Below, piece after piece: positions 2,904-17,071 of a stretch of 64,000 bases of DNA. Location: contig CP070638.1 in assembly GCA_020354025.1 (NCBI GenBank), positions 1,130,250 to 1,194,249 of the forward strand, in the 5' to 3' direction. The notes below the pieces were generated by a model. The model made no database searches. It was given only the letters and a program-made list of their open reading frames with translations, and was not told the origin of the DNA. The DNA is from Fidelibacterota bacterium. Its GTDB lineage: Bacteria; Fidelibacterota; Marinisomatia; SCGC-AAA003-L08; TS1B11. Position numbers and translations under genes: made by a program. The number at the start of each line of letters is the position of its first letter. Position 1 is the first letter of the stretch.

Positions 2904-4259
2904 CTAGCGGTTGAATACCTCCTTTATAACGGTTTCCATGGCCATTCCCCGGCTGCCTTTGACGTAGACTACGTCTCCTGCTGCCACGGTCTGGGCTAGC
3001 GTGTAGCTCAGCTCCGACTTATCACCGTAGTGATGGGCTTCCATACCTGCCGAGAGGGCGGTGCAATAGGTGCCCCTAGTCTCCGGACCATAGCAGAGCA
3101 TTAAATCTATGCCACGAGCAGCTGCGAACTCACCCACCAGCCGGTGATGTTCCTCCGAAAATCGGCCCAGTTCCAGCATATCACCAATCACTGCGATGCG
3201 CCGCCCTTCGGATGGAAGATGGAGCAGCGTTTCCAACCCGGCCAGAGTTGAGGCCAGGTTAGCGTTATATGAATCGTCTATTACGGTAACGCCGTTAAAG
3301 TGTAAAATTTCCCCGCGGCCCGGGGGAGGCGTAAATCCTTCGATAGCTTCTTTGATCTCCTCCGGCGTTACCTCGAAACGCTCTGCTATGGCGACCGCGG
3401 CCAGGGCATTCGCTGCCAAGTGGGCACCCGCTTGTGGGAGCCGGATACGTAGTTCTGTGCCCACAACCAGTACACCGCCGGGCGCAGCCTCCTCATAGCG
3501 GCCGGTTACATCGGCGGGACGGTCAAAACCGTAGGTATAGCGCCAGGCGGGAGTCTCCATGCGGGCTATGGCTGGATCGTCCACATTCACTACAGCGGTC
3601 CCATCGGGCGGCAGGGCTTTGAACAGGGCTGCCTTCTCCCGGATGACACCCTCCTTATTCTTTAAATTGACTACATGGGCCTCACTTACGTTCGTGATCA
3701 GACCCACCTCCGGCTGGGCCAGACGGGCCAGGTAGGCGATCTCACCGGGCCGGTTGGAACCCAACTCCAGGACCGCAATCTCGTTCTTCTGACCGATACG
3801 CAGGAGAGTCAGTGGCAGACTAATGGTGCTGTTGTAACTGCCCTCCGTCCCCAGCACCTTGTACTTCATTGCTAGGATCCCCACCACCAGGTTCTTGGTA
3901 GTGGTCTTGCCGTTGGAGCCGGTAATAGCCACCACACGCGGCTGATACATTTGCCGCCAGACCTGAGCCAGGGCTCCCAATTCCCGAATGTTGTCAGCTA
4001 CCTTGATGACGACAGCGGGAGGAGCCAGCGGGGAGATATCCCGCTCTACCATCACTGCTACTGCGCCGGCTTCCATCGCTTCGGAAGCGAAATCGTGGCC
4101 ATCTGCCCGGCTGCCCACGATAGGTACGAACAGGTCCCCAGCCCGGGCCTTCCGCGAGTCGATGGTGATCCCCCTGATCTCAGGGATGCTTCCCAGGCCA
4201 TAACGATCTTGCAGTAGCCTGGTGAATCGCTTCGATTCGGCCAGTTCAATCCTCATCAC
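2904..4259 (-). CDS. murF: UDP-N-acetylmuramoyl-tripeptide--D-alanyl-D-alanine ligase
   Basis: Mur ligase P-loop ITGSNGKTTTK, 451 aa, dcw order murE-murF-mraY. Confidence 0.9.
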   Translation of the reverse strand: MMRIELAESKRFTRLLQDRYGLGSIPEIRGITIDSRKARAGDLFVPIVGSRADGHDFASEAMEAGAVAVMVERDISPLAPPAVVIKVADNIRELGALAQVWRQMYQPRVVAITGSNGKTTTKNLVVGILAMKYKVLGTEGSYNSTISLPLTLLRIGQKNEIAVLELGSNRPGEIAYLARLAQPEVGLITNVSEAHVVNLKNKEGVIREKAALFKALPPDGTAVVNVDDPAIARMETPAWRYTYGFDRPADVTGRYEEAAPGGVLVVGTELRIRLPQAGAHLAANALAAVAIAERFEVTPEEIKEAIEGFTPPPGRGEILHFNGVTVIDDSYNANLASTLAGLETLLHLPSEGRRIAVIGDMLELGRFSEEHHRLVGEFAAARGIDLMLCYGPETRGTYCTALSAGMEAHHYGDKSELSYTLAQTVAAGDVVYVKGSRGMAMETVIKEVFNR

Positions 4260-4310
4260 ACAGCTCTACCACAGATATTTCTGCAGGTGTCTTCTCCGCA
4301 TGTTCTGCGG

Positions 4311-5819
4311 TTATCCCTGATATGTTTCGACGATTTCAACATCGTTATGATAAACTTTTTCGGTCCCGATGACCTCATAATCCTCCCGGCCCTTACCGAG
4401 GATCAGGAGGATAGAGCGGTCAGTCATGTTGCCCAAGACATTGAGCAGGGCTTCCCGTCGATCGTTAATGACCACGTGTTTGCCGTGGTTCAGCCCTTTC
4501 ATGATGTCGGCGTTGATCTGTTCCAGGCTCTCGGTCCGGGGATTATCAGAGGTAATTATGAGCCGGTCCGAATAGGTCTCAGCCTGGGCGGCCATGAGTG
4601 GACGTTTAGCACGGTCTCTATCGCCACCGCAACCGAAAAGAGTGATGATCTCCACATCCCTGGATGCCAGCTGACGGATTGTGCCCAGCAGATTGGCGTA
4701 GGCATCCGGAGTATGGGCATAATCAATGAAAATTCTTCCCTTAGCGGCGGAAGGAATACACTCCAGTCGGCCAGGAACTGTCGTTACCGTCGAGATACCT
4801 TCCTGAATCGCAGTTATAGGGATACCAAGGGTTAGAGCTGTTGCAGTAGCAGCCAGCAGGTTCTCCAAGTTATACTGCCCCATAAGCCGGCTCTCAATAG
4901 AGAACGCCTGATCCTGATAAACCAGGTTGGCCACTGTGATCTCCAGGCTCAGTCCCATTTCAGTTACCCATAAGTCCGTCTGGCCGGAGCTGTCGGAGAG
5001 GTCTGTATCCTTCCTCAGACTGTAAGTAACCACCGGTCCCTGAGCCGCCTCGATAAAGTACTCCGCATGTGGATCATCCCGGTTGACAATGGCGGGCCGG
5101 TCGGGAGGCAGCAGGTGGAAAAGGCGCAGCTTGGACTCCAGGTAGTCATCCATGTCGTGATGGTAGTCCAGATGGTCCTGGGAGAAATTGGTGAAAACCG
5201 CCAGATTGAAGTCAACATCATCCACACGGCATTGTTTCAGAGCATGAGATGAGACTTCCATCACTATCCTCTGAATATCTTTTTCCCGGAGGTCGGATAA
5301 AATCCGGTGGACCTGATTGGCCTCCGGTGTGGTGAATCCGGTGGACTGCCTGGTCTGGTCCCACCGCAACCCCAGGGTACCGATGACAGCAGTGGGAAGC
5401 TGATGGACTCGAAGGATAGCCGCCAGGATCTCCGAAGTGGTAGTCTTCCCATTTGTACCAGTGATGCCGATGACGGATATCCGCCTGCTGGGGTGCTGAT
5501 AGAAGTTGGCCGCCATGCGGGAATACGCTGCCGGCAGGTTTTCCACCTCGATGTAGGGGCATAAAAAAGTTTGGGATTGCGGCGAAGGACCTACCACTAC
5601 TGCTGCGCCGTTGTCAATAGCTTGCGGGATATACTCGATCCCTTGGACATGCAGCCCGGGGAGAGCCACGAATAGGCCGCCGGGTATCACTTGCCGGGAG
5701 TCGTGAGTCAGGCCGTTGATATCCAGGTCCGGTAGCGGGGCTCTGGTGTGGATTCCGTTCATGATCTGCTGCAGAAACATCACCGCTATTCGCTTTCCGG
5801 GGCGAGCGTGATCAGGCAT
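4311..5819 (-). CDS. murE: UDP-N-acetylmuramoyl-L-alanyl-D-glutamate--2,6-diaminopimelate ligase
   Basis: P-loop GITGTNGKTTT and the MurE-type DNPR motif (ITSDNPRTE). The track start at 5819 overlaps ftsI by 34 nt. An alternative ATG at 5780 (M14) lies just after the ftsI stop. Confidence 0.9.
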   Translation of the reverse strand: MPDHARPGKRIAVMFLQQIMNGIHTRAPLPDLDINGLTHDSRQVIPGGLFVALPGLHVQGIEYIPQAIDNGAAVVVGPSPQSQTFLCPYIEVENLPAAYSRMAANFYQHPSRRISVIGITGTNGKTTTSEILAAILRVHQLPTAVIGTLGLRWDQTRQSTGFTTPEANQVHRILSDLREKDIQRIVMEVSSHALKQCRVDDVDFNLAVFTNFSQDHLDYHHDMDDYLESKLRLFHLLPPDRPAIVNRDDPHAEYFIEAAQGPVVTYSLRKDTDLSDSSGQTDLWVTEMGLSLEITVANLVYQDQAFSIESRLMGQYNLENLLAATATALTLGIPITAIQEGISTVTTVPGRLECIPSAAKGRIFIDYAHTPDAYANLLGTIRQLASRDVEIITLFGCGGDRDRAKRPLMAAQAETYSDRLIITSDNPRTESLEQINADIMKGLNHGKHVVINDRREALLNVLGNMTDRSILLILGKGREDYEVIGTEKVYHNDVEIVETYQG

Positions 5820-9932: not shown

Positions 9933-9987
9933 GGGGAATTCGAGGGGTTCGTGCTGTAAATAAATCGCAGCGTAAAAAGTTTGACTG

Positions 9988-10016
9988 AAAACCCTCGGAA
10001 GCCCCGAGGGTTTTTA
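9988..10016 (+). terminator. Intrinsic terminator / attenuator hairpin between the leader ORF and hisG
   Basis: The stem CCCTCGG (9992-9998) pairs with CCGAGGG (10004-10010), has a 5-nt loop, is extended by AAAA/TTTT and is followed by TTTTTATTT. It ends about 8 nt before the hisG RBS AGGAGG (10024-10029). Confidence 0.6.
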
Positions 10017-10040
10017 TTTATACAGGAGGATATTATCACG

Positions 10041-10916
10041 ATGGCAAACATTCTGAAGCTGGGATTGCCCAAGGGCTCGTTACAGGAGAGCACCCTGGCC
10101 ATTTTTAAAAAAGCCGGGTGGAACTTCATCGTCTCCAACCGTACCTACACTCCCTACTGTGACGATCCCGAGCTGGAGTCCCTGCTCATTCGTGCCCAGG
10201 AGATAGCCCGGTACGTGGAGCAGGGGATCTTCGACGTGGGCATCACCGGCAAGGATTGGATTCTGGAGAATGACGCCGATATTGAGGAGGTCTGTGAACT
10301 GGTGTACGCCAAGTCCTCCCTGCGGCCGGTGCAGTGGGTGCTGGCGGTGCCCGAGGAATCACCGGTGAAGTCGGTAAAGGACCTGGAGGGCAGGCACATC
10401 AGTACCGAGGTAGTGAACCTCACCCGGCAGTATCTGGTCAGACAAGGGGTAAAAGCGGAAGTGGAATTTTCCTGGGGAGCCACGGAAGCCAAGCCCCGGC
10501 TGCTTTCGGACGCTATTGTCGAGGTAACCGAGACCGGCTCCTCCCTGCGGGCCAATAAGCTGCGTATTGTGGATACTATATTGAACTCCACTACCCGATT
10601 TATCGCCAACAGGGAGGCCTACCAGGATCCGTGGAAGCGGCAGAAGATTGACAACATGGCCCGTCTCCTGCAGAGCGGCATCATGGCAACAGGTCACGTG
10701 GGGCTGAAAATGAATGTCTCCAGTGAGAAACTGGACCGGATCATGGCCATGCTGCCGGCGATGAAAACCCCGACTGTGAGCCAGCTTTATAATGGTTCCG
10801 GGGCGGCGGTGGAGGTGATCGTTGAAGAGAAAACGGTACGGGAAATTATTCCCACCCTCATCCAGGCCGGTGCTACTGACATCATCGAGTACCCGCTTAA
10901 CAAGGTGATTCCGTAG
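10041..10916 (+). CDS. hisG: ATP phosphoribosyltransferase, long form (with C-terminal regulatory domain)
   Basis: N-terminus [16 protein letters not shown] is typical of HisG. At 291 aa it is the long form, and no hisZ is nearby. I chose the ATG at 10041 because AGGAGG lies 11 nt upstream. The track ORF starts 60 nt earlier, inside the terminator. Confidence 0.9.
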
Positions 10917-12200
10917 ATGAACATTCTACCTATCATCACCAGCGAGACCCAGTTCAATGAGCGGCTGGAGCGCCGCCAACAAGCCCTGGACGAGACTCGG
11001 ACATCGGTATCGGATATCCTTGCCAGGGTAAAAAAGGAGGGAGACCGGGCCCTGCGCCAGCTGACGGAAAGGTTCGACGGCGTCAGGATTGACGATCTGA
11101 TGGTTCCCGACCAGCAACTGGAGGTGGGCAGAGGTTCCCTTTCAGGACAGATGGAAACGACCATCCTCGCCGCCGCCGCCAACATCCGAACCTTCCATGA
11201 GCGCCAGATTCCGACAGGCTTCGCCATTACCCGGAAAGACGGCATGGAGGCTGCCTGGCGCTGGCGGCCGATCCAGCGGGTGGGGGTATACATCCCGGGC
11301 GGCCGGTATCCCCTCCTCTCCACCATACTGATGACGGTCATTCCCGCCCAGGTAGCAGGTGTGGCTGAAATTGTGGTTTGCACTCCGCCTGGCCCCTCCG
11401 GCTATCCTGCTGACGCCATATTGGGAATTTGCGCCCTCCTGGGTATCCGGGAGGTCTATCGTATCGGTGGCGCCCAGGCCATTGCAGCATTGGCGTACGG
11501 CACTGAAACCATCCAGGCCGTAGACAAGATCACCGGTCCGGGCAGCATTTACGTAACCAGCGCGAAGGAAGCGGTATCCAGCCAGGTGGGCATTGATATG
11601 CTGGCGGGCCCCAGCGAGGTAGTGGTGCTGGCCGACAGCACCGCCAATCCCAGGTGGATCGCCAGCGACCTGATCTCCCAGGCCGAACACGATCCCCTGG
11701 CCTGGTCGGTGCTGGTAACCGATAACCACAATCTTGCCCAGGAGGTGAATCGCCACCTTGCTGAACTGCTGAAAGACCTTACAACCCGATCCATCGCCGA
11801 GGCGTCATTGAAGGAGCACGGTTTCATCTTTCTGGGTGAGAACCTGGCGACATGTACAGCGGTGACTAACCGCATAGCGCCGGAGCATCTGTGCTTGCAG
11901 ACAGCCCGGCCGGAAGATATGCTTGAGCGGGTCCGGGCGGGAGCGATCTTCATAGGTGGCGAGACACCCGTTGCGTGGGGGGATTACTGGGCTGGTCCCA
12001 GCCACACCCTTCCAACGGCGGGGCACGCCCGTTTTCAGGGGCCTCTGTCGGTGTATGACTTCCTGGTTCCCTACTCGGTAATCAAGGCTGATGCGCGCAC
12101 TGCCCGGGTCAGCGGAGACAAGGTGAAAGCCCTGGCCGAGCTGGAGGGGCTGGCCGGGCACGCTCTTTCCATTACCCTGCGGGAGGAGAACGATGATTGA
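10917..12200 (+). CDS. hisD: Histidinol dehydrogenase
   Basis: 427 aa with TGPGSIYV and SQAEHD motifs typical of HisD. Its ATG directly abuts the hisG stop. Confidence 0.95.
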   Translation: MNILPIITSETQFNERLERRQQALDETRTSVSDILARVKKEGDRALRQLTERFDGVRIDDLMVPDQQLEVGRGSLSGQMETTILAAAANIRTFHERQIPTGFAITRKDGMEAAWRWRPIQRVGVYIPGGRYPLLSTILMTVIPAQVAGVAEIVVCTPPGPSGYPADAILGICALLGIREVYRIGGAQAIAALAYGTETIQAVDKITGPGSIYVTSAKEAVSSQVGIDMLAGPSEVVVLADSTANPRWIASDLISQAEHDPLAWSVLVTDNHNLAQEVNRHLAELLKDLTTRSIAEASLKEHGFIFLGENLATCTAVTNRIAPEHLCLQTARPEDMLERVRAGAIFIGGETPVAWGDYWAGPSHTLPTAGHARFQGPLSVYDFLVPYSVIKADARTARVSGDKVKALAELEGLAGHALSITLREENDD

Positions 12201-13257
12201 CCTCCCCTTGAAGCAGTGGATCAAGCCCGAGGTTTTGGCCCAGCCGGCTTACGAGGTCAAGACCGCCGATTATCGTATAAAACTGAACCAGAACGAAAGC
12301 CCCAGCGACTGGCCCCGGGAGCTTAAGGCAGAGGTACTGAAGCGCCTGAAAGAAGCTGCCTGGAACCGTTATCCCCTGATGATCCATCAAAGGCTGAAGG
12401 AGAAGCTGGCAAATGGTCTGGCGGTTTCGCCGGAGCAGGTGGTGATTGGTAAGGGTTCCAACGAGGTCTTACAAGCCCTGGCCCATATCACGCTTCGTCC
12501 CGGGGATACCCTGTGCACCCTCTCCCCCACCTTCGCCGTCTACCGGCTGCTGGGTGAGCAGCAGCAGGCGCTGGTATCCACATCCCCCCTCACCGTCGAC
12601 TTCCAGGTGGATGAGGAGGACCTGCTGGACAGGAGCAAGGAGGCCCGCCTCACGATCCTGAGCAATCCCAATTCGCCCACCGGGAGCCTGCTGCCGATAG
12701 AGCTCATCGGCCAGGTGGTGCGACAGGCTCAGGGACTGGTGGTTGTGGACGAAGCCTACGTCGACTTCTCCGGAGTGAGCGCTCTACCCCTGCTGGAGCA
12801 GTTCTCAAATCTTATTATCACCCGGACTTTTTCAAAGGCTTTTGCCCTGGCCGGTTTCCGGCTGGGTTTTGCCATTATGCATTCCCAACTGGCCCAACAG
12901 GTTCAGAAGGGCCTGCTGCCTTTCAACATCGATACACCCTCGGCGGTAGCGGCGGAAGTGCTGCTCGATCATCGGGAAGTGGTCAAGGAGCGAGCTGCGC
13001 TGACCATCCGGGAAAGGGACCAGCTGATAGCCCGCCTCGGGGACTTACCAGGTGTAACCGTATGGCCATCATGGGCTAACTTCTTTCTCCTGGCCACACC
13101 ACTGGGCGCTCAAAAGACTTTCACCCACCTTGCTAAGACAGGCATCCTGGTGCGGGACGTATCGGATTATCCAGGCTGCGAGAACGTGGTGCGCATCACG
13201 GTGGGCACACCGGAAGAAAACGAGGCCCTGTTCCAGGCTGTGCGAGATCTGCTGTGA
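12193..13257 (+). CDS. hisC: Histidinol-phosphate aminotransferase
   Basis: Class-II aminotransferase PLP-lysine motif TFSKAFALAGFRLG; NPNSPTG motif; 8-nt overlap with hisD. Confidence 0.9.
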   Translation: MIDLPLKQWIKPEVLAQPAYEVKTADYRIKLNQNESPSDWPRELKAEVLKRLKEAAWNRYPLMIHQRLKEKLANGLAVSPEQVVIGKGSNEVLQALAHITLRPGDTLCTLSPTFAVYRLLGEQQQALVSTSPLTVDFQVDEEDLLDRSKEARLTILSNPNSPTGSLLPIELIGQVVRQAQGLVVVDEAYVDFSGVSALPLLEQFSNLIITRTFSKAFALAGFRLGFAIMHSQLAQQVQKGLLPFNIDTPSAVAAEVLLDHREVVKERAALTIRERDQLIARLGDLPGVTVWPSWANFFLLATPLGAQKTFTHLAKTGILVRDVSDYPGCENVVRITVGTPEENEALFQAVRDLL

Positions 13258-14081
13258 TCTACGACGCCGTCATTTTCGATGTGGATGGAGTACTGGTGGA
13301 TGTGCGCCGATCATTTACCGCCGCCGCGGTGGATGCCGCTGCCGCCGCCACCGACTCCCGCCGCTTCACAGAAGATGACGCAAGGCAGTTGAAGTTTATC
13401 CGGGGTTTTAACAACGACTGGCACGTAGCCATTGCGGGCGCTGCCTGGGTCTGTTTCTGTGAGGGCTGGTCTTTTCCCGAATTCGCCCGAGAGTTGGACC
13501 GGTATGGCGGTGGCCTTAAAGGGCTCAGACACGTGGTGGGGAGTGATCTCACCACCGACTTTGAGGCTCACCTGATCCGCCTGGCCCAGGAGGCCTACGG
13601 TGGCACCACGGCCTGCAGGCAGCTGTACGGCATCAAGCCGGCTACTATCCGCCAGCCGGGGCGGTGGCAGGAGGAAGTTCCGCTGTTATCCGCTGAAGAC
13701 GCCGGACGTATAGCATCCAGGGCGGGTATCGTCACCGGACGAAGCCCAGCCGAGATGGAACTGGCCTTTCGCCTGCTCGGCTGGCGGCTGCCGGCTCAGC
13801 AGGTGGCGGTCTCCGATGACCCCGCCCGCGATAAGCCCGACCCGGGCAAGCTGGCTGCTATCCTCGAGTATCTCGGCAGCGAGAAGGCCCTGCTGGCCGG
13901 TGACGGCCGGGATGACCTGGAGCTGGCAGTAAATGCCCGAGCGAGCACCGGGAGGGAGGTGGTTTTCTGCTTCATCGGTAACTCGCCCGCGCCATGGCCG
14001 AATGTCGGGCACAGTTTCCCATCAGTTAATGAAATGCTAAACCATATTGAGGTGATCTATGACAAGTCCCAAACCGATTGA
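13254..14081 (+). CDS. HAD-superfamily (subfamily IA-like) hydrolase embedded in the his operon; candidate histidinol-phosphate phosphatase
   Basis: HAD motif I FDVDGVL, motif II IVTGRS, motif III K in DKPDP, motif IV AGDGRDD. The GTG start overlaps the hisC stop (GTGA) and the 3' end overlaps hisB by 23 nt. The function is inferred from context only. Confidence 0.7.
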   Translation: MIYDAVIFDVDGVLVDVRRSFTAAAVDAAAAATDSRRFTEDDARQLKFIRGFNNDWHVAIAGAAWVCFCEGWSFPEFARELDRYGGGLKGLRHVVGSDLTTDFEAHLIRLAQEAYGGTTACRQLYGIKPATIRQPGRWQEEVPLLSAEDAGRIASRAGIVTGRSPAEMELAFRLLGWRLPAQQVAVSDDPARDKPDPGKLAAILEYLGSEKALLAGDGRDDLELAVNARASTGREVVFCFIGNSPAPWPNVGHSFPSVNEMLNHIEVIYDKSQTD

Positions 14082-14646
14082 GATCAAGCGCAAAACCAAC
14101 GAGACGGACATCCGCCTGAAGCTGCTGCTCTGCGGAGAGCGGAAAGTGCAGGTGGAAACCGGTATCGGCTTTTTCGATCACCTGCTTCAGACCCTGGCCT
14201 TCTGGGCTGGATGGGACCTGGAGCTGTCCTGTACGGGTGACCTGCGCGTGGATACTCACCACACTGTGGAAGACGTGGCGCTTGCCCTGGGACAGGCTTT
14301 TACCAAGGCCAGGGAGGATGCCGGAAATATCGAGCGTTTCGGGATAGCCTGGATGCCCATGGGTGAGACTCTATCCCAGGTAGTGGTGGACCTGAGCGGC
14401 CGGCCCTTGTGTGTCTTCAAGGCCGACATCGGCGCCGAACGGGTCGGCACCTTTGAGACTGTCATGACGGGCCACTTTTTCCGCTCCTTCGCGGCTGAGT
14501 CAAAAGTGACCCTCCACGTCCGGACGCTTTATGGAGAAGACCCTCACCATATTATTGAGAGCATGTTCAAAGGTCTGGGCTTAGCTCTGCGACAAGCCCT
14601 GACACCCGGCACTGGTGGCGTGGCCTCTACCAAGGGAGCTTTATGA
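14059..14646 (+). CDS. hisB: Imidazoleglycerol-phosphate dehydratase (monofunctional)
   Basis: 195 aa with the two D/E-x-HH-x-x-E motifs (VDTHHTVED, GEDPHHIIES). It has no N-terminal phosphatase domain. Confidence 0.95.
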   Translation: MTSPKPIEIKRKTNETDIRLKLLLCGERKVQVETGIGFFDHLLQTLAFWAGWDLELSCTGDLRVDTHHTVEDVALALGQAFTKAREDAGNIERFGIAWMPMGETLSQVVVDLSGRPLCVFKADIGAERVGTFETVMTGHFFRSFAAESKVTLHVRTLYGEDPHHIIESMFKGLGLALRQALTPGTGGVASTKGAL

Positions 14647-15239
14647 TCGGTATGATCGACTATGGTGTGGGCAACGTAGGTAGCCTGGGCAACGCCCTGC
14701 GCTACCTGGAGCTGCCCTTTGTCCTGTCCGCCGATCCCGATGAGCTCGACCGCTGCGAGCAGCTTATCTTGCCTGGAGTGGGAGCCTTCGGCCCTGCCAT
14801 AGAGCGGCTGCGCAACTGCAACCTGGACGGATTTCTCCTCGAATGGGCGGCATCGGGGAAACCCCTCCTGGGCATCTGCCTGGGAATGCAGCTGCTCCTG
14901 TCTGCCAGCCGCGAACGGGGTCAATATGATGGCCTGGGACTGATCCCCGGCCAGGTGAGGAAAATCGAGGGAGCACCCAGGGAAGTCCATATGGGATGGA
15001 ACGAGGTAATACCCCGGCGGGAGAACTATCTTGTTCCCCGGTCAGGATACGCCTATTTCGTGCATTCCTACCGGTGTATTCTCGATGATCTCACCATAGT
15101 AATCGCTGACACCAGCTACGGTGGGCTCCTGGCGGCAGCGATACAGAAGGACAACATCCTAGGAGTACAGTTTCACCCGGAGAAATCCCAGGAGTACGGT
15201 CTGGATATCCTGCAAAGGTTTGCCGATGGGAAATTTTAA
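14643..15239 (+). CDS. hisH: Imidazole glycerol phosphate synthase, glutamine amidotransferase subunit
   Basis: Class-I GATase motifs: PGVGAF, nucleophile elbow LGICLGMQLL, QFHPEKS. ATGA overlap with hisB. Confidence 0.95.
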   Translation: MIGMIDYGVGNVGSLGNALRYLELPFVLSADPDELDRCEQLILPGVGAFGPAIERLRNCNLDGFLLEWAASGKPLLGICLGMQLLLSASRERGQYDGLGLIPGQVRKIEGAPREVHMGWNEVIPRRENYLVPRSGYAYFVHSYRCILDDLTIVIADTSYGGLLAAAIQKDNILGVQFHPEKSQEYGLDILQRFADGKF

Positions 15240-15969
15240 GGCAATCCCGGCCATAGACCTGATGGACGGCCGCTGCGTACGTCTGGTCCAAGGGGACTAT
15301 GACCGCAGCACCAAATACCCGCAGGAACCAGTAGAATTGGCCAGGCTGTTCCTAGACGCGGGACTGGACTGGCTCCATGTAGTTGATCTGGACGGGGCTA
15401 GAACGGGCAAGCCGATAGCCCTGGCCACCGTGAAGGCGCTGGCAACCACGGGCATCGGCATCGAGCTGGGCGGTGGCATCCGTACCTCGGACCACATCCA
15501 GCAGGCTCTGAACAGCGGCGCAACTAACGTAATCCTGGGCTCCAGCCTCATGAGCAACCGGGACGATCTGCCCCGGTGGCTGGACCGCTTCCCCGGACAG
15601 CTGGTGGCCGGGGTGGACGCCCGTAAAGACCGGGTTGCGGTGCACGGCTGGCAGGAAACCACCACAGTCCCGGCCTTGGACCTTATCACCCGGCTGGAAG
15701 ACATCGGCTTCCGGCGGGTGATCTACACCGATATAGCCACCGACGGCACCCTGGCGGGGCCGAACCTTGAGGGGCTGCGGGCCGTATCCCGAAGCACCCG
15801 GATGGATGTCACCGCCTCCGGTGGCATAGGCTCAGTAGCGGATATCCGGGCGGTAGCGGATCTGGCAGGACTGGGAGTAACGGGGGTCATTGTGGGTAAA
15901 GCTTTCTACGATGGGAGGATATCACTGGAGGAGTTAGCGACGTGCCTGAGCGGCGGCCAGATGGTCTGA
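15226..15969 (+). CDS. hisA: 1-(5-phosphoribosyl)-5-[(5-phosphoribosylamino)methylideneamino]imidazole-4-carboxamide isomerase
   Basis: AIPAIDLMDGRCVRLVQGDY N-terminus and GGGIR / GVIVGKA motifs of HisA. I used the ATG at 15226; the track ORF begins at the TTG at 15220. Confidence 0.9.
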   Translation: MGNFKAIPAIDLMDGRCVRLVQGDYDRSTKYPQEPVELARLFLDAGLDWLHVVDLDGARTGKPIALATVKALATTGIGIELGGGIRTSDHIQQALNSGATNVILGSSLMSNRDDLPRWLDRFPGQLVAGVDARKDRVAVHGWQETTTVPALDLITRLEDIGFRRVIYTDIATDGTLAGPNLEGLRAVSRSTRMDVTASGGIGSVADIRAVADLAGLGVTGVIVGKAFYDGRISLEELATCLSGGQMV

Positions 15970-16736
15970 CCCGGCGTATTATCCCTTGCCTGGATGTGCA
16001 TGAAGGCCAGGTGGTGAAAGGTGTGAAGTTTGTCAACCTGGTACAGGAAGGCGATCCGGTGGAGCTCGGCGCCCGTTACAGCGATATGGGGGCCGACGAA
16101 CTGGTGTTCCTGGACATCTCCGCGAGCGTTCAGGCCCGCCAGCACGTGCTGGACCTGACCAAACGGGTAGCCCGGGAAGTGTTCATTCCCTTCACCATCG
16201 GCGGGGGCATCCGGGCTCTGGATGACATGGAGGCGTTGTTGACCGCGGGTGCCGACAAGATCGCCCTCAATACCGCCGCATTGATCGATCCCGAAGTCGT
16301 TACCAGTGGTGCCAACCGCTTCGGCTCCCAGTGCATGGTAGTGGCCGTGGACGTGAAACGTACCGCGCCGGGCAGCTGGGAAGTCTTCTCCCACAGCGGC
16401 AGCCGATCCACCGGCCGAGAGGCCGCTGACTGGACCCGCGAGATCGCCGAACGCGGCGCCGGCGAGATCCTGCTCACAAGTATCGACGCCGACGGTACCC
16501 AGGCGGGGGTGGACCTTGAGATCACCCGGCGAGTTAGTGAGACCGTCCCCGTGCCGGTGATCGCCTCGGGCGGTATCGGGCAGCTGAGCCATTTCAAAGA
16601 CGCCGTTGAAAGAGGCAAGGCTGATGCGGTACTGGCTGCCTCGGTTTTTCACCGGGGTATTTTCACGATTGACGAAGTAAAGACCTATCTGCAGCAGGCG
16701 GGAATTCCCGTACGAATCACAGGAGAAACGCAGTGA
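15942..16736 (+). CDS. hisF: Imidazole glycerol phosphate synthase, cyclase subunit
   Basis: [16 protein letters not shown] and ASGGIG motifs typical of HisF. GTG start; overlaps hisA by 28 nt. Confidence 0.95.
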
Positions 16737-17071
16737 CCACCAAAGTCGAAAGTGTCAAGGAGTTGAAATACGATCCAGACGGCCTGATCCCCGCCATCGT
16801 CCAGGATGTGGAGAACGGCGAGGTACTGATGCTGGCGTACATGAGCGTTGATAGCCTGAACATATCGCTCGAGGAAGGGCGCACCTGTTTCTGGTCCCGG
16901 AGCCGCCAGCAGCTCTGGCGCAAGGGCGAGACCAGCGGCCACGTCCAGAGAATCCGGTCCATCACCACCGACTGCGACCGGGATACTCTGCTGGTCAGGG
17001 TGGAGCAGGTCGGTCCCGCTTGCCACACCGGCACCCGCAGCTGCTTCACTAAGCCAGTTAAACAGCTCTAG
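16733..17071 (+). CDS. hisI: Phosphoribosyl-AMP cyclohydrolase (HisI domain only, no HisE domain)
   Basis: 112 aa with the [27 protein letters not shown] motif of PRA-CH. GTGA overlap with hisF. Confidence 0.9.

What the first reader, a model, noticed from the sequence alone, without database searches (positions are those of the whole stretch)
13254..14081. HAD-family hydrolase translationally coupled inside the his operon: candidate for the missing histidinol-phosphate phosphatase
- hisB here (195 aa) is a monofunctional IGP dehydratase. No PHP-type or IMPase-type (HisN) phosphatase is present in the operon.
- A 275-aa HAD-superfamily ORF sits exactly between hisC and hisB. It carries all four HAD motifs: FDVDGVL, TGRS, DKPDP and GDGRDD. 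It also has a large cap insertion between motifs I and II.
- Its GTG start overlaps the hisC stop (GTGA) and its 3' end overlaps hisB by 23 nt.
- The enterobacterial HisB N-domain is also a HAD-type phosphatase, but that domain is a small cap-less DDDD type. This protein looks like a different HAD subfamily recruited to the same step.
Basis: inference. Interest (0 to 1): 0.6.

Follow-up and report, generated by a model that had tools for sequence, protein, structure and literature searches.

The report
Histidinol-phosphate phosphatase of archaeal HAD type
The gene between hisC and hisB in this Fidelibacterota (Marinimicrobia) histidine operon is very probably the cell's histidinol-phosphate phosphatase, a bacterial member of a capped HAD family whose enzyme activity is already proven in archaea, so it fills an annotation gap but is not a new kind of enzyme.

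Summary
A 275-aa ORF (13254-14081, +) has all four HAD motifs and a large helical cap. Its GTG start overlaps the hisC stop, and its end overlaps the start of a monofunctional hisB by 23 nt.

The reading as the missing histidinol-phosphate phosphatase (HolPase) is supported:
- **Homology.** A family profile matches Thermococcus thioreducens Tt82 (PDB 6IAH) over its full length, cap included (E 6e-32). Tt82 is also the best structural match. It is 62% identical to the HAD gene that closes the T. kodakarensis his operon, the toHisN type.
- **Same position as a proven enzyme.** Nitrosopumilus nmHisN, also between hisC and hisB, is a biochemically proven HolPase (Kinateder 2024).
- **Gene context.** Relatives lie in or beside his operons in at least 9 bacterial phyla.
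- **Distribution.** Of 78 sampled Fidelibacterota genomes with IGP dehydratase, 63 carry the HisB-N fusion and no such HAD. Fourteen of the 15 with monofunctional hisB have the HAD next to hisB. The exception has a near-cut-off HisN-like IMPase.
- **No rival found.** This genome has no PHP-type HolPase, no HisB-N and no IMPase with the HisN motifs.

Two of nmHisN's four fingerprint residues are kept (Lys, acidic). Tyr is Phe and Asp is Thr. Activity was not assayed.

Verdict: new member of a known kind, of moderate interest.

The parts
13254..14081 (+). HAD-superfamily phosphatase with a large helical C1 cap, 275 aa. It is the proposed histidinol-phosphate phosphatase of toHisN/nmHisN type and is TIGR01548-like.
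   Evidence: ORF and motifs. Pfam and NCBIfam. Structure model. PDB sequence and fold matches to 6IAH. hhalign against the T. kodakarensis his-operon HAD gives probability 99.6%.
13254..13257 (+). GTGA overlap. The GTG start of the HAD gene shares bases with the TGA stop of hisC, which fits translational coupling.
   Evidence: sequence. The N-terminus MIYDAVIFDVDG is conserved in orthologues.
14059..14081 (+). 23-nt overlap between the 3' end of the HAD gene and the 5' end of hisB. A GAGGTGA box lies just upstream of the hisB ATG.
12193..13257 (+). hisC, histidinol-phosphate aminotransferase. It makes the substrate of the proposed phosphatase.
   Evidence: TIGR01141 scores 312 bits, over its cut-off.
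14059..14646 (+). hisB, a monofunctional imidazoleglycerol-phosphate dehydratase of 195 aa. It has no N-terminal HolPase domain.
   Evidence: PF00475 covers residues 34-177, and there is no HAD domain.
9981..17071 (+). The his operon as a whole: hisG-hisD-hisC-HAD-hisB-hisH-hisA-hisF-hisI.

Best explanation
The ORF encodes the histidinol-phosphate phosphatase (EC 3.1.3.15) of this Fidelibacterota bacterium.

It is an Mg2+-dependent HAD phosphatase. Asp9 is the nucleophile and Asp11 the general acid/base. Thr161, Lys194, Asp217 and Asp221 complete the phosphoryl-transfer site. A single large all-helical C1 cap closes over this site and selects L-histidinol phosphate. The cap residues Lys47 and Asp55 (GFNNDW motif) match nmHisN Lys56 and Glu64. 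Phe21 and Thr22 occupy the places of nmHisN Tyr24 and Asp25.

The gene is translated as part of the hisG-D-C-HAD-B-H-A-F-I mRNA and is coupled to hisC and hisB by overlapping start and stop codons. It takes the product of HisC and hands histidinol to HisD. It replaces the HisB-N domain that most other members of the phylum carry fused to hisB.

Shown here: sequence, motifs, fold model, homology, gene context and phylogenetic distribution. Inferred: substrate, catalytic roles and translational coupling.
For: **1. Homology to characterised HolPases, cap included.**
- The family profile hits PDB 6IAH (Tt82, Thermococcus thioreducens) at E 6.4e-32 over profile positions 6-254.
- Foldseek ranks 6IAH first, with TM 0.68/0.76.
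- Tt82 is 62% identical to T. kodakarensis P0171. P0171 is the last gene of the his operon there and overlaps hisC.
- hhalign of the family against P0171 gives probability 99.6% and E 7e-24.
[quoted passage not shown] It also proves HolPase activity and specificity for the related nmHisN, which likewise lies between hisC and hisB.

**2. Conserved gene context.**
- 20 of 35 bacterial loci from a scan of GTDB species genomes have the homologue inside or beside his genes. They come from Fidelibacterota, Planctomycetota, Atribacterota, Armatimonadota/Abditibacteriota, Fervidibacterota, Chloroflexota, Acidobacteriota, Synergistota and Myxococcota.
- In the 11 other Fidelibacterota genomes with a clear homologue, the gene sits directly upstream of hisB-hisH. 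hisC lies upstream of it in the ten whose contigs reach that far.

**3. Complementary distribution in 151 sampled genomes of the phylum.**
- IGPD is present in 78.
- 63 genomes score over the HisB-N cut-off. In the rows listed it lies in the same 345-471-aa reading frame as IGPD (two hits are on cut contig ends). None of these 63 has the HAD.
- 15 have a short IGPD, and 14 of these carry the HAD or a short-cap relative directly upstream of hisB.
- Genomes without IGPD lack the HAD.
- The one exception, G019, has a HisN-like IMPase at 269 bits against a cut-off of 275.

**4. No rival in this genome.**
- There is no PHP HisJ/K. None was found in any of the 151 genomes either.
- There is no HisB-N over cut-off.
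- The two IMPases carry SuhB- or CysQ-type motifs and Gly at motif-6 position 219, not the HisN pattern (criteria from PMC5516325).

**5. Purifying selection.** Orthologues of 40-83% identity keep all catalytic and cap motifs.
Against: - No enzymatic or genetic test exists for any bacterial member.
- Two of the four fingerprint residues that define HolPase function in nmHisN are changed. Tyr24 is Phe21 and Asp25 is Thr22. In nmHisN, Y24A and D25A each cost more than 200-fold in kcat/KM.
- The protein scores only 79 bits against TIGR01548, whose cut-off is 140.
The link to nmHisN runs through the Thermococcales and haloarchaeal relatives and through the paper's description of its clusters.
- By my recollection, Tt82 was published as a phosphatase of broad specificity, so family members may be promiscuous.
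- A GmhB-like HAD-IIIA protein (L005) passes the generic 'histidinol-phosphatase domain' model TIGR01656. Some GmhB enzymes have side activity on histidinol phosphate (PMC9798254 abstract).
- 15 of the 35 bacterial homologues, and all 45 haloarchaeal ones, are not next to his genes.
Confidence: 0.85

Rival explanations
1. The ORF is a general or promiscuous HAD phosphatase, for example of phosphoglycolate or sugar-phosphate type, that merely travels with the operon. Under this reading histidinol phosphate is hydrolysed by another enzyme of the genome: the GmhB-like HAD-IIIA protein (G000:C1:2808949-2809473) or the SuhB-like IMPase.
For: - L005 passes the TIGR01656 'histidinol-phosphatase domain' cut-off (108.7 against 84 bits).
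- GmhB enzymes can have promiscuous HolPase activity (PMC9798254 abstract).
- The weak NCBIfam hits of the ORF include phosphoglycolate phosphatase models.
- JGI annotates relatives as 'phosphoglycolate phosphatase-like'.
Against: - GmhB-like genes of 185-200 aa occur all over the phylum. They are present in genomes with a HisB-N fusion and in genomes without any IGPD (one search compared), so they do not track histidine synthesis.
- This genome has a gmhA homologue (196 bits), which gives L005 its ordinary role.
- The L003 IMPase has the SuhB motif RR-x-GAAAL-D and Gly219, not the HisN motifs.
- The HAD tracks monofunctional hisB almost perfectly and sits in his operons in at least 9 phyla.
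Confidence: 0.09
2. The HAD replaces the missing HisE (phosphoribosyl-ATP pyrophosphohydrolase), not the HolPase. The operon has a HisI-only gene, and the genome has no dedicated HisE.
For: - hisI is 112 aa and holds PRA-CH only.
- The only PF01503 hit in the genome is a 27-bit match inside a MazG protein.
- Some HAD enzymes are pyrophosphatases; there is a weak PpaX hit.
Against: - The distribution is complementary to the HolPase domain HisB-N, not to HisE.
- T. kodakarensis has a fused HisIE and still carries the HAD at the end of the operon.
- nmHisN did not hydrolyse ATP or PRPP.
- The position between hisC and hisB matches the HolPase step.
Confidence: 0.03
3. The ORF is a decaying or non-functional remnant.
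For: One genome of the phylum (G019) has lost the gene from the same site.
Against: - The frame is intact and all catalytic residues are present.
- The structure model is of high confidence.
- Orthologues conserve the catalytic and cap motifs.
Confidence: 0.01

Closest known systems
toHisN-type HolPase of Thermococcales: T. onnurineus (Lee et al. 2008, as cited in PMC10804674), its T. kodakarensis orthologue P0171, and the crystal structure Tt82 (PDB 6IAH)
   Same: - It has a HAD core plus one all-helical C1 cap.
- Profile and fold matches cover the full length.
- It is encoded inside the his operon, overlapping hisC.
- The cap Lys/Arg and the acidic residue of the (N/D)D(W/F) motif are conserved.
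   Different: - Pairwise identity is only 27%.
- The cap residues are Phe-Thr instead of Tyr-Asp, and Lys instead of Arg.
- The gene sits between hisC and hisB, not at the operon's end.
- The host is bacterial.
nmHisN (Nmar_1556) of Nitrosopumilus maritimus and its clusters in Thaumarchaeota, Bathyarchaeota, Euryarchaeota and a few delta-proteobacteria (Kinateder et al. 2024, PMC10804674)
   Same: - The gene position is the same, between hisC and hisB.
- The architecture is the same: one large helical cap.
- The Lys56 and Glu/Asp64 equivalents are kept, with the same 8-residue spacing.
- The haloarchaeal relatives of our protein show the Y-R-K-D pattern that the paper describes for its cluster II.
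   Different: - Tyr24 is Phe and Asp25 is Thr.
- The accessory Ile28 and Ile52 are both Ala in this protein; they are Ala/Val and variable, respectively, in its clade.
- A direct alignment with Nmar_1556 could not be made here.
- The paper lists only 22 bacterial sequences, all delta-proteobacterial. It lists none from Fidelibacterota or from the other phyla found here.
NCBIfam TIGR01548 (HAD-SF-IA-hyp1, a 'hypothetical equivalog' with no assigned function)
   Same: It is the best NCBIfam hit and covers the full length of the model (positions 1-197). Haloarchaeal members are the next tier of homologues, at 30-36% identity.
   Different: The score of 79 bits is below the 140-bit cut-off, so the protein is not a member by NCBI's rule. 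The haloarchaeal members are not linked to his genes.
HisB-N, the HAD-IIIA (DDDD) histidinol-phosphatase domain of enterobacterial bifunctional HisB (TIGR01261)
   Same: It belongs to the same superfamily and performs the same proposed reaction. It is the enzyme used by most other Fidelibacterota.
   Different: HisB-N has no C1 cap, carries a Zn-binding Cys motif and is fused to IGPD. It has no significant similarity to this ORF beyond the core HAD motifs.

Membership tests
HAD superfamily phosphatase | Four core motifs: DxD nucleophile motif, S/T motif II, K motif III, and the acidic (G)DxxxD/DD motif IV. | tested here: met
   D9-x-D11, T161, K194 and D217/D220/D221 are present. All but T161 (at least 90% conserved) are invariant in 62 homologues. 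PF00702 scores 41 bits against a cut-off of 26.
toHisN/nmHisN-type capped HAD HolPase | Full-length homology, cap included, to an experimentally characterised member or its close orthologue. | tested here: met
   Profile against 6IAH/Tt82 gives E 6.4e-32. hhalign against T. kodakarensis P0171 gives probability 99.6%. Tt82 is 62% identical to P0171. No direct comparison with Nmar_1556 was possible.
toHisN/nmHisN-type capped HAD HolPase | A single large all-helical C1 cap between motif I and motif II. | tested here: met
   The AlphaFold model (pLDDT 94.6) has helices 21-33, 40-47, 55-68, 74-83, 87-98 and 101-125, plus two shorter ones, between strand 5-8 and strand 157-160. The best fold match is 6IAH.
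toHisN/nmHisN-type capped HAD HolPase | Fingerprint Lys56 (Arg in toHisN), the first criterion of Kinateder 2024. | tested here: met
   K47 aligns with Arg of Tt82 and P0171. The position is K in 87 and R in 6 of 93 family members.
toHisN/nmHisN-type capped HAD HolPase | Fingerprint Glu64 (Asp in toHisN). | tested here: met
   D55 of GFNNDW aligns with Asp of GDDF in Tt82 and P0171. The position is D or E in 92 of 93 members.
toHisN/nmHisN-type capped HAD HolPase | Fingerprint Tyr24. | tested here: not met
   Phe21 aligns with the Tyr of S-Y-D. Phe is fixed in this class-level clade. Phe also occurs in his-linked members of other phyla, and Tyr in the rest.
toHisN/nmHisN-type capped HAD HolPase | Fingerprint Asp25 (Arg in the paper's cluster II). 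| tested here: not met
   The residue here is Thr22. Across the family this position is R, T, S, I, P or H, also among his-linked members.
toHisN/nmHisN-type capped HAD HolPase | Gene located in the his cluster next to hisC. | tested here: met
toHisN/nmHisN-type capped HAD HolPase | Specific hydrolysis of L-histidinol phosphate. | not testable with these tools
   This needs an enzyme assay or a complementation test.
NCBIfam TIGR01548 | Score over the curated cut-off of 140.2 bits. | tested here: not met
   79 bits.
HisB-N / HAD-IIIA histidinol phosphatase (TIGR01261, TIGR01656) | Score over the cut-off, and the capless DDDD architecture. | tested here: not met
   TIGR01656 scores 15.9 bits against a cut-off of 84, and TIGR01261 gives no hit. 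A large cap is present.
PHP-type (HisJ/HisK) and IMPase-type (HisN) HolPases | PHP fold or IMPase fold. | tested here: not met
   The ORF has only HAD-family hits. Elsewhere in the genome there is no TIGR01856 hit, and no IMPase reaches the HisN cut-off or carries the HisN motifs.

The most novel reading that the evidence does not exclude
This capped HAD family has so far been presented as the 'archaeal' HolPase, with 22 delta-proteobacterial outliers. It may in fact be a major bacterial HolPase. It lies in or beside his operons in at least nine bacterial phyla and has been exchanged by gene transfer: Fidelibacterota carry at least three separate lineages of it. It tolerates a different substrate-binding set, Phe-Thr-Lys-Asp instead of Tyr-Asp-Lys-Glu. 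If so, it would close part of the hisN gap that GapMind 2026 still reports in 20% of prototrophs, and it would show that the published four-residue fingerprint is too strict.
Probability: 0.6. Interest if true: 0.5.

Novelty: new member of a known kind. Interest (0 to 1): 0.38.

Why it matters
Histidinol-phosphate phosphatase is the step most often missing from reconstructions of amino-acid biosynthesis. GapMind 2026 reports it absent in 42 of 208 prototrophs (PMC13759103).

Public annotation calls this protein and its relatives only 'HAD family hydrolase' or 'phosphoglycolate phosphatase-like'. A metabolic model of these uncultured marine bacteria would therefore wrongly predict histidine auxotrophy.

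The assignment here lets the pathway be called complete for this lineage. It also points to the same solution in several other bacterial phyla. The Phe/Thr variant gives enzymologists a natural test of which cap residues really determine specificity.

It does not reveal a new enzyme class.

Tried and rejected
- **Sequence of Nmar_1556.** I tried to obtain it for a direct alignment. The paper's supplements are not held, no other paper mentions it, and the best 80 loci of the GTDB scan held no Thaumarchaeota. The link to nmHisN therefore stays indirect.
- **TIGR01548 in the literature.** The search gave only an unrelated Phytophthora paper.
- **IMPases as HisN.** I considered the two IMPase-family genes and rejected them on the motif criteria of PMC5516325. 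L003 has the SuhB motif 5, L004 is CysQ-like, and both have Gly at motif-6 position 219.
- **GmhB-like L005 as the HolPase.** I rated this unlikely. Such genes are present across the phylum whether or not IGPD is present, and this genome has gmhA.
- **HisE replacement.** I judged it unlikely.
- **The three monofunctional-hisB genomes without a protein-level HAD hit.** Two have a short-cap relative that the profile search found. The third has no remnant in the hisC-hisB spacer, only a 14-nt tandem repeat.
Full report
**1. Observation**

The ORF at 13254-14081 (+) is real. It is 275 aa and starts with GTG inside the tetranucleotide GTGA, which also holds the TGA stop of hisC (12193-13257). It ends with TGA at 14079-14081, 23 nt after the ATG of hisB (14059). 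A GAGGTGA box lies just before that ATG.

The neighbours were identified as follows:
- hisC: TIGR01141, 312 bits, over the cut-off.
- hisB: 195 aa, with PF00475 covering residues 34-177 and no phosphatase domain.
- hisI: PRA-CH only.

The operon order is hisG-hisD-hisC-HAD-hisB-hisH-hisA-hisF-hisI.

The ORF passes Pfam PF00702 (41 bits). Its best NCBIfam hit is TIGR01548, a 'hypothetical equivalog' without assigned function. That hit covers the full model but scores 79 bits against a cut-off of 140. The motif residues D9, D11, G162, R163, K194, D217, D220 and D221 are invariant in a 62-sequence alignment of homologues; T161 is at least 90% conserved.

**2. Organism and orthologues**

The window lies in a single-contig genome of 3.40 Mb, 95% complete. 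The closest homologues come from Fidelibacterota (Marinimicrobia, 'Neomarinimicrobiota') MAGs at 44-83% identity. The next tier, at 30-36%, is the TIGR01548 family of Halobacteria.

**3. Is a HolPase encoded elsewhere in this genome?**

- **PHP type.** There is no HisJ/HisK hit (TIGR01856) in this genome, nor in any of 151 sampled genomes of the phylum.
- **IMPase type.** Two IMPase-family genes exist, at 192 and 157 bits against a HisN cut-off of 275.
  - One carries the SuhB signature of Kulis-Horn et al. (two Arg followed by G-A-A-A-L-D). The other is closest to CysQ.
  - Both have Gly at motif-6 position 219, where HisN does not (criteria from PMC5516325).
- **GmhB-like.** One GmhB-like HAD-IIIA protein of 174 aa, beside ddl, passes the generic TIGR01656 domain model.
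  - It scores far below the HisB-N model (45 bits against 140).
  - The genome has a gmhA homologue.
  - GmhB-like genes occur throughout the phylum, including in genomes with no IGP dehydratase at all. They do not track histidine synthesis.

**4. What family is it?**

A 14-sequence profile (A1) hits one solved structure strongly: 6IAH, phosphatase Tt82 of Thermococcus thioreducens. The E-value is 6.4e-32 and the match covers profile positions 6-254, cap included.

The AlphaFold model, built on 62 sequences, has pLDDT 94.6. It shows a Rossmann-like core and one all-helical insertion between strand 1 and the strand before motif II. Foldseek against the PDB ranks 6IAH first, with TM 0.68/0.76.

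Tt82 is 62% identical to the T. kodakarensis HAD hydrolase P0171. P0171 is the last gene of the operon hisG-D-B-H-A-F-IE-C-HAD and overlaps hisC. hhalign of our family against P0171 gives probability 99.6% and E 7e-24 over 214 columns.

According to Kinateder et al. 2024 (PMC10804674):
- The related nmHisN (Nmar_1556) is encoded between hisC and hisB of Nitrosopumilus. It has one large nine-helix cap and is a specific HolPase, with kcat/KM about 1.1e4 M-1 s-1 and no activity on nine other phosphoesters.
- Their similarity network holds a Euryarchaeota cluster with the pattern Tyr-Arg-Lys-Asp, and 22 delta-proteobacterial sequences.

The haloarchaeal TIGR01548 proteins that are our second-tier homologues show that pattern with the spacing of the nmHisN residues (S-Y-R-R-A-I ... 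I-x-x-F-K ... G-G-F-N-N-D-W). I conclude that the ORF belongs to this toHisN/nmHisN family. I could not align Nmar_1556 itself.

**5. Fingerprint**

The mapping rests on the alignments to Tt82 and P0171, which carry toHisN's Tyr-Asp-Arg-Asp.

| nmHisN residue | Kind | This protein |
|---|---|---|
| Tyr24 | fingerprint | Phe21 |
| Asp25 | fingerprint | Thr22 |
| Lys56 | fingerprint | Lys47 |
| Glu64 | fingerprint | Asp55 |
| Ile28 | accessory | Ala25 |
| Ile52 | accessory | Ala43 |

Across 93 family members:
- The Lys site is K or R in all.
- The acidic site is D or E in 92.
- The Tyr site is Y or F, with a few I or L. Both Y and F occur among his-linked genes.
- The Asp25 site is highly variable (R, T, S, I, P, H).

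The two residues with the largest effect in the alanine scan are therefore kept. The aromatic ring is kept without its hydroxyl. The fourth position seems free in the bacterial and haloarchaeal branches. This is the main caveat on specificity.

**6. Gene context elsewhere**

A scan of one genome per GTDB species returned 80 loci. I located his genes in them by tblastn with the window's own His proteins.

All 45 haloarchaeal loci lack his neighbours. Of 35 bacterial loci, 20 have the homologue inside or beside his genes:
- Directly hisC-HAD-hisB in Fidelibacterota, Planctomycetota, Chloroflexota, Acidobacteriota (Holophagaceae), Myxococcota ('Deltaproteobacteria'), one Atribacterota locus and three unclassified bacteria.
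- hisD-HAD-hisB in the other Atribacterota loci.
- Near hisD or hisB in Armatimonadota, Abditibacteriota and Fervidibacterota.
- After hisI in a Synergistaceae genome.

In a maximum-likelihood tree the window's protein lies in a clade of 10 sequences, all his-linked, with support 100/99. The eight that could be placed come from its own class or phylum; one further row is an unclassified MAG. Two other Fidelibacterota lineages (families f18/f20, and f21) sit elsewhere in the tree, one next to a Bacteroidota MAG and one near the haloarchaeal branch. This suggests several acquisitions. The deep branches are weakly supported and the root is arbitrary.

**7. Distribution within the phylum**

The sample is 151 genomes, drawn evenly. 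Relatives are not independent, so these are counts, not statistics.

- IGP dehydratase is found in 78 genomes.
- 63 genomes score over the TIGR01261 cut-off for HisB-N. In the rows listed it lies on the same contig and in the same 345-471-aa frame as IGPD, apart from two hits on cut contig ends. None of these 63 has the HAD.
- 15 genomes have a short IGPD frame of 191-232 aa.
  - 12 have the HAD by protein search. All 12 have it directly upstream of hisB-hisH. The 11 whose locus reaches that far also show hisC upstream.
  - 2 more (G022, G125) have a 225-aa short-cap relative between hisC and hisB, found with the profile.
  - 1 (G019) has none. Its hisC-hisB spacer holds a 14-nt tandem repeat. 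This genome carries a HisN-like IMPase at 269 bits against a cut-off of 275. Together with its congener G025, this is the highest score in the sample, so a displacement is plausible.
- In the window's own class, every sampled genome with IGPD has the HAD, and every listed genome without IGPD lacks it.

**8. Mechanism**

*Shown:* the catalytic motifs, the capped fold, the operon position and the overlapping start and stop codons.

*Inferred from established HAD chemistry and from the nmHisN alanine scan:*
- Asp9 attacks the phosphate, and Asp11 protonates the leaving histidinol.
- Mg2+ is held by Asp9, Asp11 and Asp217/Asp221.
- Thr161 and Lys194 bind the phosphoryl group.
- The cap closes over the site and contacts the substrate through Lys47, Asp55 and Phe21.
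- Translational coupling with hisC and hisB keeps the stoichiometry.

I did not re-test it. It would put the gene under histidine control.

**9. Rivals**

- A generic HAD phosphatase, with the real HolPase being GmhB-like or SuhB-like: 0.09.
- A HisE substitute: 0.03. The genome has only a MazG as a PF01503 hit. However, T. kodakarensis has HisIE plus the HAD, and nmHisN does not cleave ATP or PRPP.
- A dead gene: 0.01.

**10. Novelty and verdict**

The enzyme class and its place in his clusters are published (toHisN 2008, nmHisN 2024). This is therefore a new member of a known kind.

Three things appear not to be described. I searched the library only for 'TIGR01548', 'Nmar_1556', 'nmHisN' and HolPase terms.
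- The breadth of the family in bacterial his operons.
- Its clean complementarity with the HisB-N fusion inside one phylum.
- The Phe-Thr variant of the cap.

GapMind 2026 still lists hisN as missing in 20% of prototrophs and does not cite the 2024 paper. The practical value for annotation is therefore real.

Confidence that this ORF is the HolPase is 0.85. Interest is 0.38.

Noticed in passing
G000:C1:2641020-2642024 (locus L089:1360-2364, minus strand); hisI at window 16733-17071: The operon's hisI encodes PRA-CH only. The only PF01503 (PRA-PH/HisE) hit in the whole genome is a 27-bit match inside a 334-aa tandem-domain MazG protein. The HisE step therefore has no dedicated enzyme, and MazG is the obvious candidate.
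   Followed up: partly
L108 (G022:C43) 4119-4790; also G125:C68:1668-2330: Two Fidelibacterota genomes of another family (f21) carry a 225-aa short-cap version of the HAD between hisC and hisB. It lacks about 75 residues of the central cap and has the haloarchaeal-type Y-R-K-D residues. In the tree it groups away from the window's clade, which suggests a separate acquisition.
   Followed up: partly
L107 (G019:C5) 4400-4774: In one genome the HAD is missing from the hisC-hisB junction. The 374-nt spacer holds about ten copies of a 14-nt tandem repeat (GTGAAAAGTGAGAA). The same genome, and its congener G025, have a near-cut-off HisN-like IMPase (269 bits), a possible non-orthologous displacement caught in progress.
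   Followed up: partly
Loci L014-L083 (Halobacteria); L010, L013, L029 (Bacillota/Sulfobacillus): All 45 haloarchaeal TIGR01548 genes are unlinked to his genes. A Bacillota/Sulfobacillus subgroup has a variant cap motif (S-Y-P ... N-D-E-W) and no his neighbours. Its function may differ.
   Followed up: no
G000:C1:2808949-2809473 (L005:1489-2013): A GmhB-like HAD-IIIA phosphatase with the CxH...CxC zinc motif overlaps the stop of an upstream 319-aa multi-pass membrane protein and is overlapped by the start of ddl (D-Ala-D-Ala ligase). This is an unusual neighbourhood for a heptose-pathway enzyme.
   Followed up: no
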